Shown piece after piece: positions 8,068-64,000 of a stretch of DNA of 64,000 nucleotides. This stretch comes from Escherichia coli (GTDB lineage: Bacteria > Pseudomonadota > Gammaproteobacteria > Enterobacterales > Enterobacteriaceae). Numbering within the stretch: the stretch's first letter is position 1; each line of letters starts with the position of its first letter. The translations under genes and the position numbers were made by a program. The stretch lies in NCBI RefSeq assembly GCF_044324785.1, contig NZ_CP172127.1. One strand, given 5' to 3'. The notes beneath the pieces were generated by a model. It was not told the origin of the DNA, did not search any database, and was given only the letters and a program-made list of their open reading frames with translations.

Positions 8068-8808
8068 ATGGCAGGTCATAGTAAATGGGCCAACACCAGA
8101 CATCGTAAAGCTGCGCAGGATGCTAAGCGCGGTAAAATCTTCACTAAAATCATTCGTGAGCTGGTAACTGCAGCTAAGCTCGGCGGTGGCGATCCGGACG
8201 CTAACCCGCGTCTGCGTGCAGCAATTGATAAAGCATTGTCTAACAACATGACCCGTGACACTCTGAACCGCGCAATTGCACGTGGTGTGGGCGGTGATGA
8301 TGATGCAAACATGGAAACCATCATCTACGAAGGTTACGGTCCTGGCGGCACGGCAATCATGATTGAATGTCTGTCTGACAACCGCAACCGTACCGTTGCT
8401 GAAGTGCGTCATGCATTCAGCAAATGTGGCGGTAACCTCGGTACTGATGGTTCCGTAGCTTATCTGTTCAGCAAAAAAGGCGTGATCTCCTTCGAGAAAG
8501 GCGATGAAGACACCATCATGGAAGCAGCACTGGAAGCAGGTGCTGAAGACGTTGTGACCTATGATGACGGCGCGATTGATGTCTACACTGCATGGGAAGA
8601 AATGGGTAAAGTGCGCGACGCTCTGGAAGCGGCAGGTCTGAAAGCAGACAGCGCGGAAGTTTCCATGATCCCGTCCACCAAAGCTGATATGGATGCAGAA
8701 ACCGCACCGAAACTGATGCGTCTGATCGATATGCTGGAAGATTGCGACGACGTGCAGGAAGTCTACCATAACGGTGAAATCTCTGATGAGGTTGCAGCGA
8801 CTCTCTGA
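8068..8808 (+). CDS. yebC: YebC/PmpR-family transcriptional regulator
   Basis: ORF trimmed to ATG at 8068 (246 aa, [10 protein letters not shown]...). Confidence 0.9.
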
Positions 8809-8842
8809 TGGGGCCTGCTAAACAGCAAAACGGAGACGCGTG

Positions 8843-9364
8843 ATGGCTATTATTCTCGGCATTGACCCGGGTTCGCGCGTGACCGGCTATGGCGTCATCC
8901 GCCAGGTAGGCAGGCAATTGTCCTACCTGGGTAGCGGATGCATACGCACCAAAGTGGATGATTTACCGTCTCGTCTGAAGCTCATCTATGCGGGCGTGAC
9001 GGAAATCATCACCCAGTTCCAGCCTGATTATTTCGCCATTGAACAAGTCTTTATGGCGAAGAACGCTGACTCAGCCCTGAAACTGGGTCAGGCGCGCGGC
9101 GTGGCGATTGTGGCGGCGGTGAATCAGGAATTACCAGTATTTGAATACGCGGCACGTCAGGTAAAGCAAACGGTGGTAGGTATTGGTAGTGCCGAAAAAA
9201 GCCAGGTGCAGCATATGGTCCGCACCTTGCTGAAACTGCCCGCTAACCCGCAGGCGGACGCCGCCGATGCGTTAGCTATCGCGATTACCCACTGCCACGT
9301 CAGTCAGAATGCGATGCAGATGAGCGAATCGCGGCTGAACCTGGCGAGAGGGCGACTGCGTTAA
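8843..9364 (+). CDS. ruvC: Holliday junction resolvase RuvC
   Basis: 173-aa protein [18 protein letters not shown]...; recognised RuvC. Confidence 0.95.
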
Positions 9365-9365
9365 G

Positions 9366-9968
9366 TTATACCGCCTCGGTCAGTTCCGGCTGAGGCGTTT
9401 CCACTCCCTCCGCATGAATCAACACCAAACCCGGATGATGCCACAAACTGGCTGGCGTGACGGTTTTACGCTCCCACGGAATAGAACCTAAGAACCAGAA
9501 TTTCCAGAAAGTGAGTTTTGCATTCGGATTGCTATTTAACAGTTCTCCAAACGTCTCTATTTCACCCACCGGAATACATAGCGCCTCTTTATAAATATCA
9601 AAAACAAATTTTGAACAGAACTGGCGCGAAGATTCGTATTTAAAACCGGTGTGGTAAAGTTTGCGTAACCGGGAGGGAACCTGTTCAACAATTCGTTGTT
9701 TTTGTTGTTGTGTTAGCCCGGCGTCTAATCGTTTTATAGCATAGCGTTGATTAGCAGAACGTTTAATAAAACGAGACAGCGTGGTGATAGTTGAAAGGGG
9801 AACCCGGCTTTCTGCAACCAGGAAGTCTTCACCGTTATGACCGATAATGATCCCGACGTGATTACTCCAGCAATTTGATGCAGCTGATATTTGACCAAAT
9901 AAGGCAGCACCTATACATGTAAAGACGATATCACCAATTTCATATTCAGCAGGGTAATTAATATTCAT
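9366..9968 (-). CDS. yebB: Uncharacterised protein YebB (probable permuted papain-like amidase family)
   Basis: ORF 9366..10067 trimmed to internal ATG (200 aa); AT-rich gene on opposite strand between ruvC and ruvA. Confidence 0.75.
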
Positions 9969-10038
9969 GTTGTCATTCCATTGAAATAGATATGAATATA
10001 CGTAATAGCATAAATAATTTATTTTTTCAGGAGGCGCA

Positions 10039-10104
10039 ATGTATATTTTAATTACGCATTTCTTCACTGAATATGTAATATTTAAATATTTGCTTCCAAT
10101 ATAA
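10039..10104 (+). CDS. Candidate 21-aa small hydrophobic protein ([21 protein letters not shown])
   Basis: ATG preceded by AGGAGG at 7-nt spacing; below ORF-track size cutoff; may correspond to the annotated small protein yobI, but this is from memory and not verified. Confidence 0.4.
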
Positions 10105-10175
10105 CCTGTAGAAAAAATTCTACTGCGTCATTTTTCAGAACATCGGGACGCCTCGCAAGTTTTCTTCATCCTTCG

Positions 10176-10191
10176 CTGGATATCTATCCAG
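10176..10191 (+). promoter_or_regulatory. LexA (SOS) box upstream of ruvAB
   Basis: CTGGATATCTATCCAG palindrome matching the CTG-N10-CAG LexA consensus, about 50 bp upstream of ruvA. Confidence 0.75.
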
Positions 10192-10242
10192 CATTTTTTT
10201 ATCATACAGCATTATCTTTGATTCATTACGCAGGAGCGTCAT

Positions 10243-10854
10243 GTGATAGGCAGACTCAGAGGCATCATCATTGAAAAACAACCCCCGCTGGTGTTAATTG
10301 AAGTGGGCGGCGTAGGCTATGAAGTGCATATGCCGATGACCTGTTTTTATGAACTCCCTGAAGCGGGTCAGGAAGCGATCGTTTTCACCCACTTTGTGGT
10401 GCGTGAAGACGCGCAATTGCTGTACGGTTTTAACAATAAACAAGAGCGCACGTTGTTCAAAGAGTTGATCAAAACCAACGGCGTCGGCCCGAAGTTGGCG
10501 CTGGCGATCCTCTCTGGAATGTCAGCGCAGCAGTTCGTTAATGCCGTTGAGCGTGAAGAAGTGGGGGCGCTGGTGAAACTGCCGGGTATTGGCAAAAAAA
10601 CCGCCGAACGCTTGATTGTTGAAATGAAAGACCGATTTAAAGGTTTGCATGGCGATCTCTTTACGCCAGCCGCCGACCTGGTACTCACATCACCTGCCAG
10701 CCCGGCGACCGACGATGCTGAACAGGAAGCGGTTGCCGCGCTGGTGGCGCTGGGCTATAAACCACAAGAAGCAAGCCGCATGGTGAGCAAAATCGCTCGC
10801 CCTGACGCCAGCAGTGAAACATTAATTCGCGAAGCCCTACGCGCCGCGTTATGA
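10243..10854 (+). CDS. ruvA: Holliday junction branch migration complex subunit RuvA
   Basis: 203-aa ORF with GTG start; recognised RuvA. Confidence 0.95.
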
Positions 10855-10859
10855 GGTAA

Positions 10860-11873
<1,014 letters not shown>

Positions 11874-27337: not shown

Positions 27338-28507
27338 TTAAGCCGCAACCGTCTGTGTGACGGATTTACGCTGGCCTCCATGGGCAGAAACGACGAGTCC
27401 CGCCGCTTGTAATTCCAGTATGCCCTTGCGTTTGATGTTGAGCGCCGCGTTGATATCGCGGTCATGTTCAACTCCACACTCTGGACACTGCCAGATGCGC
27501 TTATGTAATGGCATCTCCGACATTTTGTGACCGCAGCAGTGGCAGGTCTTCGAACTGGCGAACCATTGATCCAGTTTCACCAGATGCACACCTTTCTCTG
27601 TTGCTTTGTATTCCAGTTTTGTGATGAATCCAGACCATCCAGCATCGCCTATCGCACGAGCCAGATGGTGATTTTTCATCATATTTGCCGTTTTCAATGT
27701 CTCGACAATTACCGCTTGGTTTTCGTCAACAATTGCGCGAGATAACTTGTGCTGGAAATCGGCACGGGCACTAGCTACCCGTTCGTGAACGGCTGCAAGT
27801 TGTATTCTGGCTTTGCGCCTGTTTGCGCTCCCTTTTTTCTTACGGGACAGTGCTTTCTGCTTCCGGCGCAGGTTGCGACTTGCATTGATTAGGTGGCGGG
27901 GACTGGCAATTTTATTGCCGTCCGATTTGATGACAAAATGCGCCAGCCCCATATCCAGCCCTGTCACATTTGATATCAGTGCGGGCTTTGCCGGCGCTTC
28001 CATCCCGTCGTCACAGAGTAACGACGCGTAGTATTTCCCGGTTGCGCTGCGGCTCAACGTGATACTTTTCAGCATTCCCGTAATTTCACGATGTAAACGC
28101 GCTTCAATCGGCAAGATTTTCGGTATTTTTATCGCACCATCAAGGACTTTTATGCCAACACAATGATAGCTCGATTGTCTGCCGTGTTTACTTTTAAAGG
28201 TTGGTTTACCTGCTTTCAGTTTCGGATTGAAAAAGTTAGAAAAAGCCACGTCGAGGTTAATTACCGCCTGCTGCAACGCAATAGAATCATATTCTTTAAG
28301 CCATCCATACCGGCGGGATTTCTTCGCCACTGCAAGCAGTGGTTTGAGGTCTTTACGCGGGTTTAAATTTACGCGGTGCCGCTGGTAAGAATGTTTCTTG
28401 ATATGCAGAGCTTTGTTGTACGCAAAACGCACTGCACCGAACTGGGCGTTGATAAATTCAGCCTGTTCTGGTGTCGGGTAGATGCGTACTTTTGTTGCTC
28501 TTAACAT
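27338..28507 (-). CDS. tnpB: TnpB (IS605 OrfB family; RuvC-like RNA-guided endonuclease)
   Basis: 389-aa ORF; RuvC-I GLDMG, RuvC-II E in VIVETL, zinc finger CHCCGH...CPECG, RuvC-III HDRDINAALNI. Confidence 0.9.
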   Translation of the reverse strand: MLRATKVRIYPTPEQAEFINAQFGAVRFAYNKALHIKKHSYQRHRVNLNPRKDLKPLLAVAKKSRRYGWLKEYDSIALQQAVINLDVAFSNFFNPKLKAGKPTFKSKHGRQSSYHCVGIKVLDGAIKIPKILPIEARLHREITGMLKSITLSRSATGKYYASLLCDDGMEAPAKPALISNVTGLDMGLAHFVIKSDGNKIASPRHLINASRNLRRKQKALSRKKKGSANRRKARIQLAAVHERVASARADFQHKLSRAIVDENQAVIVETLKTANMMKNHHLARAIGDAGWSGFITKLEYKATEKGVHLVKLDQWFASSKTCHCCGHKMSEMPLHKRIWQCPECGVEHDRDINAALNIKRKGILELQAAGLVVSAHGGQRKSVTQTVAA

Positions 28508-28563
28508 AATCAGCGCTCATTGATATAATGCTTTTATTTTAACACTTTAGGTGGATATATCAA

Positions 28564-28989
28564 TTGAGTAATCATGATGATTTACTGGCGGGATTTCTCC
28601 GCAAACGACACAGTGTCAGTAAGCTGGTTGTGCACCTTATTTTTACGACAAAGTATCGACGCAAACTATTCGACAGTCAGATGATCGCTCAGTTGCGTGA
28701 GGCTTTTGGCTCCGCTGCGGCAAAGCTTGAATGCGAAATTATTGAGATGGACGGGGAGCCAGACCATGTACACCTGCTGGTTGCCTACCCGCCAAAACTG
28801 GCGGTCAGTGTGATGGTCAATAATTTAAAATCGGTATCATCACGTTTGCTACGCCAGCAGAACGCGCATTTACGTATGCAGAGTAAAACGGGGCTTTTGT
28901 GGTCGAGATCGTACTTTGTCTGTAGCACCGGAGAGGCAACGATTGAAACGCTCAGAGCCTACGTTCAGAGTCAGTCAACACCTGATTGA
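28564..28989 (+). CDS. tnpA: IS200-type Y1 (HuH) transposase TnpA
   Basis: 141-aa ORF; TTKYRR block, HuH motif HVHLLV, C-terminal catalytic Tyr (RAYVQSQ); only in-frame start is TTG at 28564. Confidence 0.85.
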   Translation: MSNHDDLLAGFLRKRHSVSKLVVHLIFTTKYRRKLFDSQMIAQLREAFGSAAAKLECEIIEMDGEPDHVHLLVAYPPKLAVSVMVNNLKSVSSRLLRQQNAHLRMQSKTGLLWSRSYFVCSTGEATIETLRAYVQSQSTPD

Positions 28990-63551: not shown

Positions 63552-63851
63552 TTAGACCAGTGCTTTTAGTTCTTCCTGCATATATGTTGAAAAGTATTCA
63601 GGATTTTTAATCACAGAGCGTTCACCTGTCTCCATTTTTTTTGCCCATCCAACCATTTTTTCCGTGAACCCAGGGTTCCAGCCTTCCTGGTCAGCTCGCG
63701 CCGTAATATCAGCGGCACTCGCGGGTACTCCCAGTTCTTTTAAATATTTAAAGATTCCCTTCGCCGTGCTTTCATTCATCGAACTTGGTGTTGGCGCTGA
63801 TACATCCATGGCACCAATGAAATCCAGGGCTTTATCTATTACAGCAGGCAT
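63552..63851 (-). CDS. yoaC: DUF1889 family protein YoaC
   Basis: ORF 63552..63911; start uncertain, set to internal ATG giving 99 aa. Confidence 0.7.
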   Translation of the reverse strand: MPAVIDKALDFIGAMDVSAPTPSSMNESTAKGIFKYLKELGVPASAADITARADQEGWNPGFTEKMVGWAKKMETGERSVIKNPEYFSTYMQEELKALV

Positions 63852-64000
63852 ATTCTTATCCTTAAAATTAACCATGTTATCGATAAGGCTATATATGACC
63901 TTAATTTGCATCTAATATCAAAGGGATTATAACGATATGGCACGAGTTAACCTGTTGACATTCAGGTGTTTTAAAGGTAGCAGCTCATGGTGTGTTATCC

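What the first reader, a model, noticed from the sequence alone, without database searches (positions are those of the whole stretch)
9366..10242. yebB: AT-rich, oppositely oriented gene interrupting the ruvC-ruvAB recombination cluster
ruvC and ruvAB are functionally linked yet separated by a minus-strand gene with visibly lower GC content and an AT-rich upstream region. YebB has a Cys/His arrangement ([11 protein letters not shown]) suggestive of a permuted papain-like amidase. The composition suggests an old horizontal insertion into the ruv locus.
Basis: inference. Interest (0 to 1): 0.35.

Follow-up and report, generated by a model that had tools for sequence, protein, structure and literature searches.

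The report
yebB islet between ruvC and ruvA
This is the known E. coli gene yebB, which encodes an uncharacterised, probably cytoplasmic, papain-like enzyme; it sits in a small AT-rich piece of acquired DNA that split the ruvC–ruvA junction early in the Enterobacteriaceae, so the finding is real but ordinary.

Summary
The yebB coding sequence (9366–9968, minus strand, 200 aa) lies between ruvC and ruvAB. Its GC is 0.434 against a gene mean of 0.512 (z = −3.1). Its GC3 of 0.388 is the lowest of 55 genes, and its upstream spacer (GC 0.32) is the most AT-rich intergenic region in the window.

YebB belongs to the YaeF/YiiX permuted NlpC/P60 family:
- Pfam PF05708, E = 2e-45.
- NCBIfam YebB equivalog, 409 bits.
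- AlphaFold model with pLDDT 95.7 and TM 0.82–0.90 to YiiX (2if6).

The catalytic residues are His37, Glu53, Tyr105 and Cys118.

In Xenorhabdus, Erwinia, Rahnella and Edwardsiella, ruvC and ruvA are 79–139 nt apart and there is no yebB. In Enterobacteriaceae the same gap holds yebB and/or other unrelated genes, and Dickeya has a NicO transporter there. Proteus and Providencia carry yebB at other loci.

The gene tree disagrees with the species tree, yet dN/dS is 0.04–0.13, so the gene is under purifying selection. No mobility genes, tRNA or flanking repeats remain.

Verdict: an old horizontal insertion at a recurrently used junction. The gene and its family are already annotated, and the substrate is still unknown.

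The parts
8843..9364 (+). ruvC, the conserved left flank of the islet. Its stop codon is 1 nt from the yebB stop codon (convergent genes).
   Evidence: RuvC is 100% identical across Escherichia and 95–98% across Enterobacteriaceae.
9366..9968 (-). yebB coding sequence (200 aa, ATG start): a leaderless YaeF/YiiX-family permuted NlpC/P60 enzyme.
   Evidence: Pfam PF05708, E = 2e-45. NCBIfam NF008547 equivalog, 409 bits against a cut-off of 227. RefSeq annotation. AlphaFold pLDDT 95.7. Foldseek to 2if6, TM 0.82–0.90. GC 0.434 and GC3 0.388.
9858..9860 (-). Codon for His37, the catalytic His (equivalent to YiiX His49).
   Evidence: Invariant in A1. Conserved in 103 of 104 sequences in A3. Aligned to the YiiX catalytic His (Xu 2011, PMC3142127).
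9810..9812 (-). Codon for Glu53, the third triad residue (equivalent to YiiX Glu64).
   Evidence: conserved in 100 of 104.
9654..9656 (-). Codon for Tyr105, the NlpC/P60 signature tyrosine (equivalent to YiiX Tyr115).
   Evidence: conserved in 103 of 104.
9615..9617 (-). Codon for Cys118, the catalytic nucleophile (equivalent to YiiX Cys128). It lies C-terminal to the His, which is the circular permutation.
   Evidence: conserved in 103 of 104.
9870..9872 (-). It is specific to YebB orthologues and is not catalytic.
   Evidence: At least 90% conserved in YebB orthologues but only 16 of 104 across the family, where Ser is commonest. It aligns to Ser in YiiX.
9969..10242 (.). AT-rich spacer (GC 0.32) holding divergent promoters, yobI and the ruvAB control region.
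   Evidence: Only the ruvA-proximal ~90 nt is alignable among Escherichia species.
10002..10030 (-). yebB promoter-like site, CTGAAA-17-TATTAC.
   Evidence: Exact match to the hexamers that Shimada et al. 2014 list for yebB. It is a consensus or SELEX-type assignment, not a mapped transcription start.
9970..9996 (+). yobI promoter-like site, TTGTCA-15-TATGAA. It begins immediately upstream of the yebB start codon.
   Evidence: K-12 is listed as TTGTCA-15-TACAAA.
10039..10104 (+). yobI, a 21-aa small protein ([21 protein letters not shown]).
   Evidence: Translation. NCBIfam NF038179, 56 bits against a cut-off of 33. RefSeq annotation.
10176..10191 (+). LexA (SOS) box CTGGATATCTATCCAG of ruvAB, the native right edge of the junction.
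   Evidence: CTG-N10-CAG palindrome. It overlaps the −35 of the ruvA promoter-like site. Invariant in three Escherichia species. Its identity as the ruvAB SOS box rests on my own knowledge of the 1988 ruv operon papers.
10177..10205 (+). ruvAB promoter-like site, TGGATA-17-TATCAT.
10243..11873 (+). ruvA (10243–10854, GTG start) and ruvB (10863–11873), the conserved right flank.

Best explanation
yebB is a stand-alone accessory gene in a roughly 0.8-kb AT-rich islet (about 9365–10170). The islet was inserted into the ancestrally tight ruvC–ruvA junction near the base of the Enterobacteriaceae, and yebB has since been kept under purifying selection. The highly conserved ruvC and ruvA flanks have since allowed gain, loss and allele replacement of cargo at this site.

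The product is a leaderless, therefore presumably cytoplasmic, member of the YaeF/YiiX family of circularly permuted NlpC/P60 papain-like enzymes.

Inferred mechanism: His37, oriented by Glu53, activates Cys118. Cys118 attacks an acyl carbonyl held by Tyr105, giving an acyl-thioester intermediate that is resolved by water (amidase or esterase) or by an acceptor (acyltransferase). By analogy with YiiX, which crystallised with a fatty acid in a hydrophobic S1 tunnel, the likely substrate is a fatty-acyl amide or (thio)ester and not peptidoglycan.

yebB has no demonstrated functional link to RuvABC.

Shown: position, composition, family, fold, conserved catalytic residues, phyletic pattern and selective constraint. 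Inferred: cytoplasmic location, lipid-type substrate and the catalytic scheme.
For: **Composition.**
- GC and GC3 are outliers in the window.
- yebB is lower in GC3 than ruvC, ruvA and ruvB in every Enterobacteriaceae locus examined, by about 0.075–0.32 against the mean of the three.
- In Proteus and Providencia its GC (0.35–0.41) matches the surrounding locus (0.33–0.37).

**Ancestral state of the junction.**
- The ruvC–ruvA gap is 132 nt in Xenorhabdus, 79 nt in Erwinia, 90 nt in Rahnella and 139 nt in Edwardsiella, inside an otherwise identical aspS–nudB–yebC–ruvC–ruvA–ruvB block.

**Derived states of the junction.**
- yebB lies in the gap in Escherichia, Salmonella, Citrobacter, Kluyvera, Pseudocitrobacter, Superficieibacter, Enterobacter and Klebsiella spallanzanii.
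- K. oxytoca has a 220-aa gene with no Pfam match there and no yebB. Dickeya has a NicO transporter there.
- Two further gene families without Pfam matches come and go in the gap, and Pseudocitrobacter vendiensis has two more genes there.

**Non-syntenic copies.**
- Proteus, Providencia and a second C. amalonaticus copy lie elsewhere, and their neighbours are not conserved.

**Gene tree.**
- The YebB clade is monophyletic against outgroups in 192 of 200 bootstraps.
- Enterobacteriaceae are monophyletic in only 10 of 200, and the ruv-linked copies in 0 of 200.
- The allele of Escherichia sp. E1V33 groups with Pseudocitrobacter vendiensis in 173 of 200, although its RuvC and YebC are 100% E. coli-like.

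**Selective constraint.**
- dN/dS is 0.04–0.13, with dN 5–8 times that of the neighbours.
- yebB is present in 5425 of 5426 complete E. coli genomes.

**Family and fold.**

**Catalytic residues.** His37, Glu53, Tyr105 and Cys118 are invariant in the orthologues and at least 96% conserved across 104 family members. They were mapped onto YiiX His49, Glu64, Tyr115 and Cys128 (Xu et al. 2011, PMC3142127).

**Leaderless protein.**
- Only 11 residues precede the first strand.
- 73 of 93 more distant relatives have at least 25 extra N-terminal residues, and 55 of 93 have a hydrophobic segment there.
Against: - No insertion scars remain: no flanking direct repeats, tRNA, integrase or transposase (the ORF list). 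The insertion is inferred only from comparison with other genomes.
- Codon-usage distance is unremarkable, rank 14 of 55.
- There is no homologue in the phage collection, and the only 'plasmid' hits are chromids or mislabelled chromosomes. No vehicle is known.
- The gene tree is star-like, with about 70% identity between all major lineages. Direction and number of transfers cannot be resolved, and saturation at the variable sites could mimic some of the discordance.
- Low GC persisting since the base of the Enterobacteriaceae is not what simple amelioration (gradual drift of acquired DNA towards host composition) predicts.
- No biochemical activity is known for any YebB, YiiX or YaeF protein. 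The fatty-acid ligand of YiiX was an interpretation of electron density.
Confidence: 0.75

Rival explanations
1. yebB is ancestral to Enterobacterales at this site and was inherited vertically. Other families lost it by precise deletion, and its low GC simply reflects weak expression and relaxed codon selection.
For: - yebB is a core gene in E. coli.
- It is syntenic across at least eight Enterobacteriaceae genera.
- It is under purifying selection.
- Codon-usage distance is not extreme.
- No mobility scars are present.
Against: - Four families (Morganellaceae/Xenorhabdus, Erwiniaceae, Yersiniaceae, Hafniaceae) show a tight 79–139 nt junction, which would need several independent clean deletions.
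- The Morganellaceae that do carry yebB have it at unrelated loci.
- The gene tree contradicts family boundaries: 10 of 200 bootstraps for Enterobacteriaceae monophyly.
- YebB of Proteus is as close to E. coli (72–74%) as that of Enterobacter (69–71%), whereas RuvC falls from 95–98% within the family to 84–88% between families.
Confidence: 0.1
2. yebB is functionally coupled to the Ruv/SOS system, for example co-regulated with ruvAB through the shared control region or modifying a recombination protein. Its position would then be adaptive and not accidental.
For: - yebB is transcribed divergently from a spacer that also holds the ruvAB LexA box.
- The position is stable across Enterobacteriaceae.
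- One transposon insertion in yebB gave a long lag phase in a screen (PMC5996734). It was not complemented and could be a polar effect.
Against: - The LexA box lies about 146 nt beyond the yebB −35 hexamer, with yobI in between.
- In Salmonella, Citrobacter and E. albertii a further 0.7–1.5 kb of unrelated genes separates yebB from the LexA box.
- yebB is unlinked to ruv in Proteus and Providencia and absent from the site in K. oxytoca.
- The only recombination-related Pfam hit, RecA_dep_nuc, has E = 0.16, which is chance level.
Confidence: 0.05
3. YebB is a peptidoglycan hydrolase like the canonical NlpC/P60 enzymes (MepS, or YkfC-type).
For: - It belongs to the NlpC/P60 superfamily.
- In Proteus it lies among genes for a VanW-domain protein and PBP1C, and in Providencia next to an alanine racemase gene.
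Against: - It has no signal peptide or lipobox, so it would not reach the murein sacculus.
- The neighbourhoods are not conserved between genera.
- Foldseek finds MepS only at E = 4.4.
- The permuted families have a narrow hydrophobic S1 pocket judged unsuitable for peptides (Xu 2011).
Confidence: 0.07
4. yebB is a conflict-system component, a toxin or effector related to the permuted NlpC/P60 T6SS effectors (Tox-Act1, TseH), or part of a defence islet.
For: - It lies in a variable, AT-rich islet with rapidly turning-over neighbours of unknown function.
- Related permuted clades include lipid-targeting T6SS toxins (PMC12994826).
- The second C. amalonaticus copy sits next to an RTX-repeat protein.
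Against: - There are no PADLOC hits for YebB or for the other gap genes.
- No adjacent immunity-like partner is conserved, and no secretion-system genes are nearby.
- It is single-copy, near-universal in E. coli and under purifying selection.
- The cited study places YiiX-like proteins in a clade separate from the toxin clades.
Confidence: 0.03

Closest known systems
YebB of E. coli K-12 (b1862; NCBIfam NF008547 'YebB family permuted papain-like enzyme')
   Same: It is the same gene. It scores 409 bits against the equivalog cut-off of 227, has the same 200-aa length and the same position between ruvC and yobI/ruvA, and is 96–99% identical in DNA to nearly all complete E. coli genomes.
   Different: Only allelic differences: about 2% amino-acid divergence from the commonest E. 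coli cluster. This window comes from a lineage matched at 99% or better by only 1–2 of 5,426 genomes.
YiiX of E. coli (PDB 2if6), YaeF/YiiX-like permuted NlpC/P60 enzymes (Pfam PF05708 Peptidase_C92)
   Same: - Same fold: TM 0.82–0.90 and rmsd 2.1 Å.
- Same permuted order His → Glu → Tyr → Cys.
- All four catalytic residues are conserved.
   Different: - Only 26–28% sequence identity.
- The YebB domain begins about 10 residues from its N-terminus, whereas Xu et al. number the catalytic His of YiiX as residue 49 against His37 in YebB, so YiiX carries extra N-terminal residues.
- YebB has its own nearly invariant residues, such as C33, H106 and the FWKFWF segment.
- Whether the fatty-acid tunnel is kept could not be examined with these tools.
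BcPPNE (Bacillus cereus BCE_A0238, PDB 3kw0) and LRAT/PLAAT (HRASLS) acyltransferases-phospholipases
   Same: They share the permuted papain-like core and a Cys/His-based acyl-enzyme chemistry. They are the second-best structural matches, with 3kw0 at E about 1e-6 and TM 0.60.
   Different: They are distant: 16% identity for 3kw0, and PLAAT3 only at E = 0.36. LRAT and PLAAT enzymes are eukaryotic and membrane-anchored with known phospholipid substrates. No such substrate is known for YebB.
Small genomic islets at conserved-gene junctions (recombination-anchored variable regions)
   Same: - Atypical composition.
- Patchy phyletic distribution.
- Alternative cargo at the same junction in different lineages.
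- Allele replacement between highly conserved flanks.
   Different: There is no integrase, tRNA target or direct repeats. The cargo is a single 0.6-kb gene that has become core in E. coli.

Membership tests
YaeF/YiiX-like permuted NlpC/P60 (Pfam PF05708 Peptidase_C92) | Family HMM match above the curated threshold over the full domain | tested here: met
   155.2 bits against a gathering score of 27, residues 43–217 of the 233-aa ORF on profile positions 3–165 of 166.
YaeF/YiiX-like permuted NlpC/P60 (Pfam PF05708 Peptidase_C92) | Circular permutation: the catalytic His and the polar third residue precede the catalytic Cys in the sequence | tested here: met
   The order is His37, Glu53, Tyr105, Cys118. 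These residues align to YiiX His49, Glu64, Tyr115 and Cys128. They are invariant in 36 orthologues and conserved in 100–103 of 104 family members.
YaeF/YiiX-like permuted NlpC/P60 (Pfam PF05708 Peptidase_C92) | Three-dimensional fold of a solved family member | tested here: met
   AlphaFold model pLDDT 95.7. Foldseek top hits are 2if6 (E = 8e-17, TM 0.82/0.90, rmsd 2.1 Å) and then 3kw0.
YaeF/YiiX-like permuted NlpC/P60 (Pfam PF05708 Peptidase_C92) | Hydrophobic S1 tunnel that binds a fatty acyl chain | not testable with these tools
   Model coordinates cannot be inspected here. The feature is described for YiiX only.
YaeF/YiiX-like permuted NlpC/P60 (Pfam PF05708 Peptidase_C92) | Cys-dependent hydrolase or acyltransferase activity | not testable with these tools
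   This needs biochemistry. The papers read report no activity for any bacterial member.
YebB orthologue group (NCBIfam NF008547, equivalog) | Score above the equivalog cut-off, full length | tested here: met
   409.4 bits against 227, profile positions 2–204 of 205. The YiiX equivalog model scores only 80 bits against 216.
Canonical NlpC/P60 peptidoglycan endopeptidases (P60-like, AcmB/LytN-like) | Catalytic Cys N-terminal to His, and export signal or cell-wall targeting domains | tested here: not met
   The order is permuted. Only 11 residues precede the domain and there is no hydrophobic leader. MepS is found only at Foldseek E = 4.4.
Horizontally acquired genomic islet | Base composition atypical for the host | tested here: met
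   GC z = −3.1, the lowest GC3 of 55 genes, and the most AT-rich spacer of 26. The same holds in all Enterobacteriaceae loci examined.
Horizontally acquired genomic islet | Absent from the same site in related lineages, with patchy distribution and a discordant gene tree | tested here: met
   ruvC and ruvA are adjacent in four other families. Copies in Morganellaceae are non-syntenic. Enterobacteriaceae monophyly is recovered in 10 of 200 bootstraps.
Horizontally acquired genomic islet | Mobility hallmarks: integrase or transposase, tRNA target, flanking direct repeats, or presence on phages or plasmids | tested here: not met
   No meaningful flanking repeats. No tRNA within 5 kb on either side. 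No phage hit, and only chromid or chromosome records among the 'plasmids'.
LexA (SOS) regulon | LexA box overlapping the gene's own promoter | tested here: inconclusive
   The one good box (10176–10191) overlaps the ruvA promoter-like site and lies about 146 nt beyond the yebB −35 hexamer. No expression data were examined.
Anti-phage defence systems (PADLOC) | Match to a model of a defence-system protein | tested here: not met
   No hits at E ≤ 0.01 for YebB or for four other gap proteins.

The most novel reading that the evidence does not exclude
The ruvC|ruvA junction is a recombination-anchored hotspot in Enterobacterales. Small AT-rich cargo genes are repeatedly gained, swapped between genera and lost there. 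YebB, a leaderless offshoot of a mostly exported enzyme family, would have been retained because it performs a so-far-unrecognised cytoplasmic acyl-amide or thioester deacylation or acyl transfer, for example on N-acyl amino acids, acylated proteins or lipoprotein precursors.
Probability: 0.15. Interest if true: 0.45.

Novelty: already known. Interest (0 to 1): 0.18.

Why it matters
It matters little for genome biology in general. yebB is an annotated E. coli y-gene, and its family, fold and permuted active site were described in 2003–2011.

The modest value of this work lies in three points:
1. It shows cleanly that the split between ruvC and ruvAB in E. coli, often treated as a regulatory design (ruvAB under SOS control, ruvC not), is a by-product of insertions into an ancestrally tight junction.
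2. It gives the correct catalytic residues (His37, Glu53, Tyr105, Cys118) for mutagenesis of an uncharacterised core enzyme.
3. It flags that YebB, unlike most of its relatives, lacks an export signal. This narrows the search for a substrate to the cytoplasm.

Tried and rejected
- **First structure prediction.** An alignment of 36 close orthologues gave pLDDT 61, which is unusable. It was replaced by a 104-sequence alignment drawn from the exhaustive representative search.
- **Guilt by association.** The neighbours of the non-ruv copies share nothing between genera: Proteus has LysR, VanW, Dyp peroxidase and PBP1C; Providencia has a GntR-aminotransferase and alanine racemase; C. amalonaticus has an RTX protein and aldo-keto reductases. 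No operon inference is possible.
- **Donor search.** The nearest relatives outside the YebB clade are at most 51% identical. They come from unnamed metagenome contigs or from Burkholderia and Cupriavidus chromids at about 43%. No donor can be named.
- **Phage and plasmid carriage.** No phage hits, and the plasmid-collection hits were only chromids or mislabelled chromosomes.
- **Is yobI or the E. coli spacer a remnant of the 224-aa gap gene of Salmonella and E. albertii?** tblastn and DNA alignment found no similarity beyond the LexA-box-proximal ~90 nt.
- **RNA elements.** Rfam found nothing credible in 9000–10600.
- **Defence-system models.** None matched.
- **Literature.** A search for 'yebB' gave almost only table entries. 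The 1991 ruvC sequencing papers are not held in the library.
- **Bootstrap tree.** A Biopython BLOSUM bootstrap tree timed out. It was redone with Kimura-corrected p-distances.
Full report
**1. What is there**

The window is Escherichia chromosome carrying aspS–nudB–yebC–ruvC (+), yebB (−), yobI–ruvA–ruvB (+) and znuBC (−). A 2.1-kb query across the locus matches 5425 of 5426 complete E. coli genomes. Only one genome (strain N3, 99.4%) reaches 99% identity, so the window comes from a somewhat divergent lineage.

RefSeq annotates yebB as a 200-aa protein starting at the ATG that corresponds to window 9968. The 233-aa GTG ORF reaching 10067 is only the mechanical ORF. A promoter match listed for yebB in a genomic SELEX study lies inside that extension, at 10002–10030.

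The finding's interval of 9366–10242 is therefore the yebB coding sequence (9366–9968) plus a 274-nt spacer. The spacer contains:
- the 21-aa small-protein gene yobI, at 10039–10104;
- a CTG-N10-CAG palindrome, CTGGATATCTATCCAG, at 10176–10191. It overlaps a ruvA promoter-like site. From my own knowledge it is the ruvAB SOS box.

ruvC and yebB converge, with 1 nt between their stop codons and no terminator-like site between them.

**2. Is the composition really unusual?**

Yes. Among 55 long ORFs of the window:

| Measure | yebB | Other genes | Position |
|---|---|---|---|
| GC | 0.434 | 0.512 ± 0.025 | z = −3.06, second lowest |
| GC3 | 0.388 | — | lowest, z = −2.9 |
| GC1 | low | — | z = −2.1 |
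| GC2 | average | — | z ≈ 0 |

- The spacer (GC 0.321) is the most AT-rich of 26 intergenic regions.
- A codon-usage distance is only rank 14 of 55. The anomaly is a shift in base composition, not an exotic codon dialect.
- The GC deficit is not peculiar to E. coli. In every Enterobacteriaceae locus recovered, yebB has lower GC and GC3 than ruvC, ruvA and ruvB.
- In Proteus and Providencia the gene's GC (0.35–0.41) matches its surroundings (0.33–0.37).

**3. Synteny**

A scan of one genome per GTDB species recovered 23 loci.

*yebB in the ruvC–ruvA gap.* tblastn with the window's proteins places yebB between ruvC and ruvA in Escherichia (several species), Superficieibacter, Citrobacter, Pseudocitrobacter, Kluyvera, Enterobacter and Klebsiella spallanzanii, and also in Salmonella.

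*yebB elsewhere.* In five Proteus species, two Providencia species and a second copy in C. amalonaticus, yebB lies at other loci. The neighbours there are not conserved.

*Contexts of RuvC in other families.* The same aspS–nudB–yebC–ruvC–ruvA–ruvB block occurs with ruvC–ruvA gaps of only 79–139 nt and no yebB:

| Genus (family) | Gap |
|---|---|
| Xenorhabdus (Morganellaceae) | 132 nt |
| Erwinia | 79 nt |
| Rahnella | 90 nt |
| Edwardsiella | 139 nt |

*Other cargo in the same gap.*
- Dickeya carries a NicO-family transporter.
- K. oxytoca carries a 220-aa gene with no Pfam match and no yebB.
- Two families of roughly 220–230-aa proteins without Pfam or NCBIfam matches come and go. 'A' is in Salmonella, Citrobacter, E. 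albertii and Escherichia sp. E1V33. 'B' is in K. oxytoca, Citrobacter, Kluyvera, Superficieibacter and a metagenome-assembled genome.
- Pseudocitrobacter vendiensis has yet other genes on both sides of yebB.

Among Escherichia species only the ~90 nt next to ruvA, including the LexA box, is alignable. The rest of the spacer has been replaced.

The tight junction is therefore ancestral, and the junction has been used repeatedly as an insertion and exchange site.

**4. Gene history**

YebB orthologues form a tight group, monophyletic against outgroups in 192 of 200 bootstraps. The next relatives among 1.84 billion representatives are at most 51% identical, and only 666 representatives match at all.

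Inside the group the tree is star-like, with about 70% identity between all major lineages regardless of family:
- Enterobacteriaceae are monophyletic in only 10 of 200 bootstraps.
- The ruv-linked copies are monophyletic in 0 of 200.
- A 'B-type' non-syntenic clade (Salmonella, C. amalonaticus) has 181 of 200.
- The Escherichia sp. E1V33 allele groups with Pseudocitrobacter vendiensis (173 of 200), although its RuvC and YebC are 100% identical to E. coli.

RuvC behaves conventionally by contrast: 95–98% identity within the family and 84–88% between families.

Two Pseudocitrobacter species carry alleles with GC3 of 0.34–0.37 and a third carries one with 0.57, which again points to allele replacement.

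yebB is nevertheless a working gene. dN/dS is 0.04–0.13, although dN is 5–8 times that of its neighbours. It is near-universal in E. coli, with DNA identity comparable to that of ruvC.

No vehicle or scar is visible:
- no phage homologue, and only chromid or mislabelled chromosome hits among 'plasmids';
- no flanking repeats or tRNA;
- no mobility genes among the ORFs.

**5. What the protein is**

- Pfam PF05708 (Peptidase_C92, 'permuted papain-like amidase, YaeF/YiiX'), E = 2e-45.
- NCBIfam YebB equivalog, 409 bits against a cut-off of 227.
- PDB sequence search finds YiiX (2if6) at E = 1e-17.
- An AlphaFold model built on 104 diverse relatives has pLDDT 95.7. Its best structural matches are YiiX (TM 0.82–0.90, rmsd 2.1 Å), then the B. 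cereus permuted enzyme 3kw0, with PLAAT3 only weakly.

Xu et al. 2011 (PMC3142127) define the YiiX catalytic set as Cys128, His49, Glu64 and Tyr115. In the alignment these correspond to YebB Cys118, His37, Glu53 and Tyr105. All four are invariant in 36 orthologues and present in 100–103 of 104 family members.

The motif therefore contains the catalytic His but not the catalytic Cys.

YebB has only 11 residues before the first β-strand. Of 93 more distant relatives, 73 have an N-terminal extension of at least 25 residues and 55 have a hydrophobic segment there. YebB is thus a leaderless, presumably cytoplasmic, offshoot of a mostly exported family. This is an inference.

**6. Likely mechanism**

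By homology, His37 (oriented by Glu53) activates Cys118. Cys118 forms an acyl-thioester with the substrate carbonyl, which is polarised by Tyr105. Water or an acceptor then resolves the intermediate.

The substrate class is inferred only from YiiX, whose re-refined structure shows a fatty-acid-shaped ligand in a hydrophobic S1 tunnel. That led Xu et al. to propose an amidase acting on fatty-acyl–peptide or amino-acid bonds, or an acyl transfer. Later papers still call the bacterial family's function poorly understood.

Confidence by claim:
- Family, fold and active site: high, above 0.95.
- 'Old horizontal insertion at a reused junction': about 0.8.
- A lipid-type acyl substrate: about 0.4.

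**7. Rivals**

- *Vertical ancestry with multiple precise losses.* Disfavoured by the four tight outgroup junctions, the non-syntenic Morganellaceae copies and the discordant tree.
- *A functional link to Ruv/SOS.* Disfavoured because linkage is absent outside Enterobacteriaceae. In addition, the LexA box is about 146 nt beyond the yebB −35 hexamer, and in several genera kilobases of other genes intervene.
- *A peptidoglycan hydrolase role.* Disfavoured by the missing export signal and the permuted family's pocket.
- *A toxin or defence role.* There is no support: no PADLOC hit, no partner gene, and core status with purifying selection.

**8. Unexplained**

The GC deficit has persisted since the base of the Enterobacteriaceae. 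Either alleles are re-imported or exchanged (supported in part), or AT-rich, probably weakly expressed genes have a lower compositional equilibrium. This was not resolved.

**9. Verdict**

The gene, its family and its unknown-function status are already in the databases. Its location between ruvC and ruvA has been visible since the locus was sequenced in 1991 (own knowledge; the papers are not held). Interest is low.

Noticed in passing
window 27338-28989: An IS200/IS605-type element. It has a TnpB-like ORF (389 aa, minus strand; Pfam OrfB_IS605 plus the Cas12f1-like TNB domain) and an adjacent Y1 transposase fragment (102 aa; IS200-like).
   Followed up: partly
L006 4319-5797; L031 4100-4774; L028 4813-5475; L003 5015-5692; L022 3971-4669: Two unrelated families of roughly 220–230-aa, apparently membrane-associated proteins occupy the ruvC–ruvA gap in various Enterobacteriaceae. 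They have no Pfam, NCBIfam or PADLOC match and are missing from E. coli.
   Followed up: partly
L029 3817-4848 (Dickeya dadantii CP002038): A NicO-family nickel/cobalt transporter gene sits between ruvC and ruvA. It is an independent, unrelated insertion at the same junction.
   Followed up: no
L022 5601-6200 (Escherichia sp. E1V33): The yebB allele is only 87% identical to the window's, although RuvC and YebC are 100% identical. It groups with Pseudocitrobacter vendiensis in 173 of 200 bootstraps. dS jumps from 0.10 (yebC) to 0.95 (yebB), which suggests inter-genus allele replacement.
   Followed up: partly
L017 2726-6579 (Citrobacter amalonaticus S646): A second, non-syntenic yebB-type gene lies directly downstream of, and on the same strand as, a 1029-aa RTX-repeat protein gene. 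RTX toxins are usually activated by fatty acylation, so the pairing may be worth a look.
   Followed up: no
L011 4952-6579 (Proteus columbae): In Proteus, yebB follows a VanW-domain gene on the same strand and lies near genes for a Dyp peroxidase and PBP1C. The arrangement is not conserved in Providencia.
   Followed up: partly
window 9362-9368: The ruvC and yebB stop codons are separated by a single nucleotide, and no terminator-like structure lies between them. Convergent transcripts probably overlap. The tight junction (a 1-nt gap, or a 4-nt overlap in Citrobacter) recurs in Salmonella, Citrobacter and other Escherichia.
   Followed up: no
window 8800-10900 compared with E. coli genomes: Only one of 5,426 complete E. 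coli genomes (strain N3) is at least 99% identical over this 2.1 kb. Nearly all the others are 95–99% identical, so the window comes from an uncommon E. coli lineage. In strain N3, ruvA is annotated as frameshifted.
   Followed up: no
window 63552-63911: The only ORF with lower GC than yebB (0.417, GC3 0.400) is a 119-aa DUF1889 protein on the minus strand.
   Followed up: no
L019 6001-6601 (Klebsiella spallanzanii): yebB is recovered as two overlapping tblastn segments that could not be joined into one alignment, which suggests a frameshift (a pseudogene or an assembly error). K. oxytoca lacks yebB altogether, so the gene may be decaying in Klebsiella.
   Followed up: no
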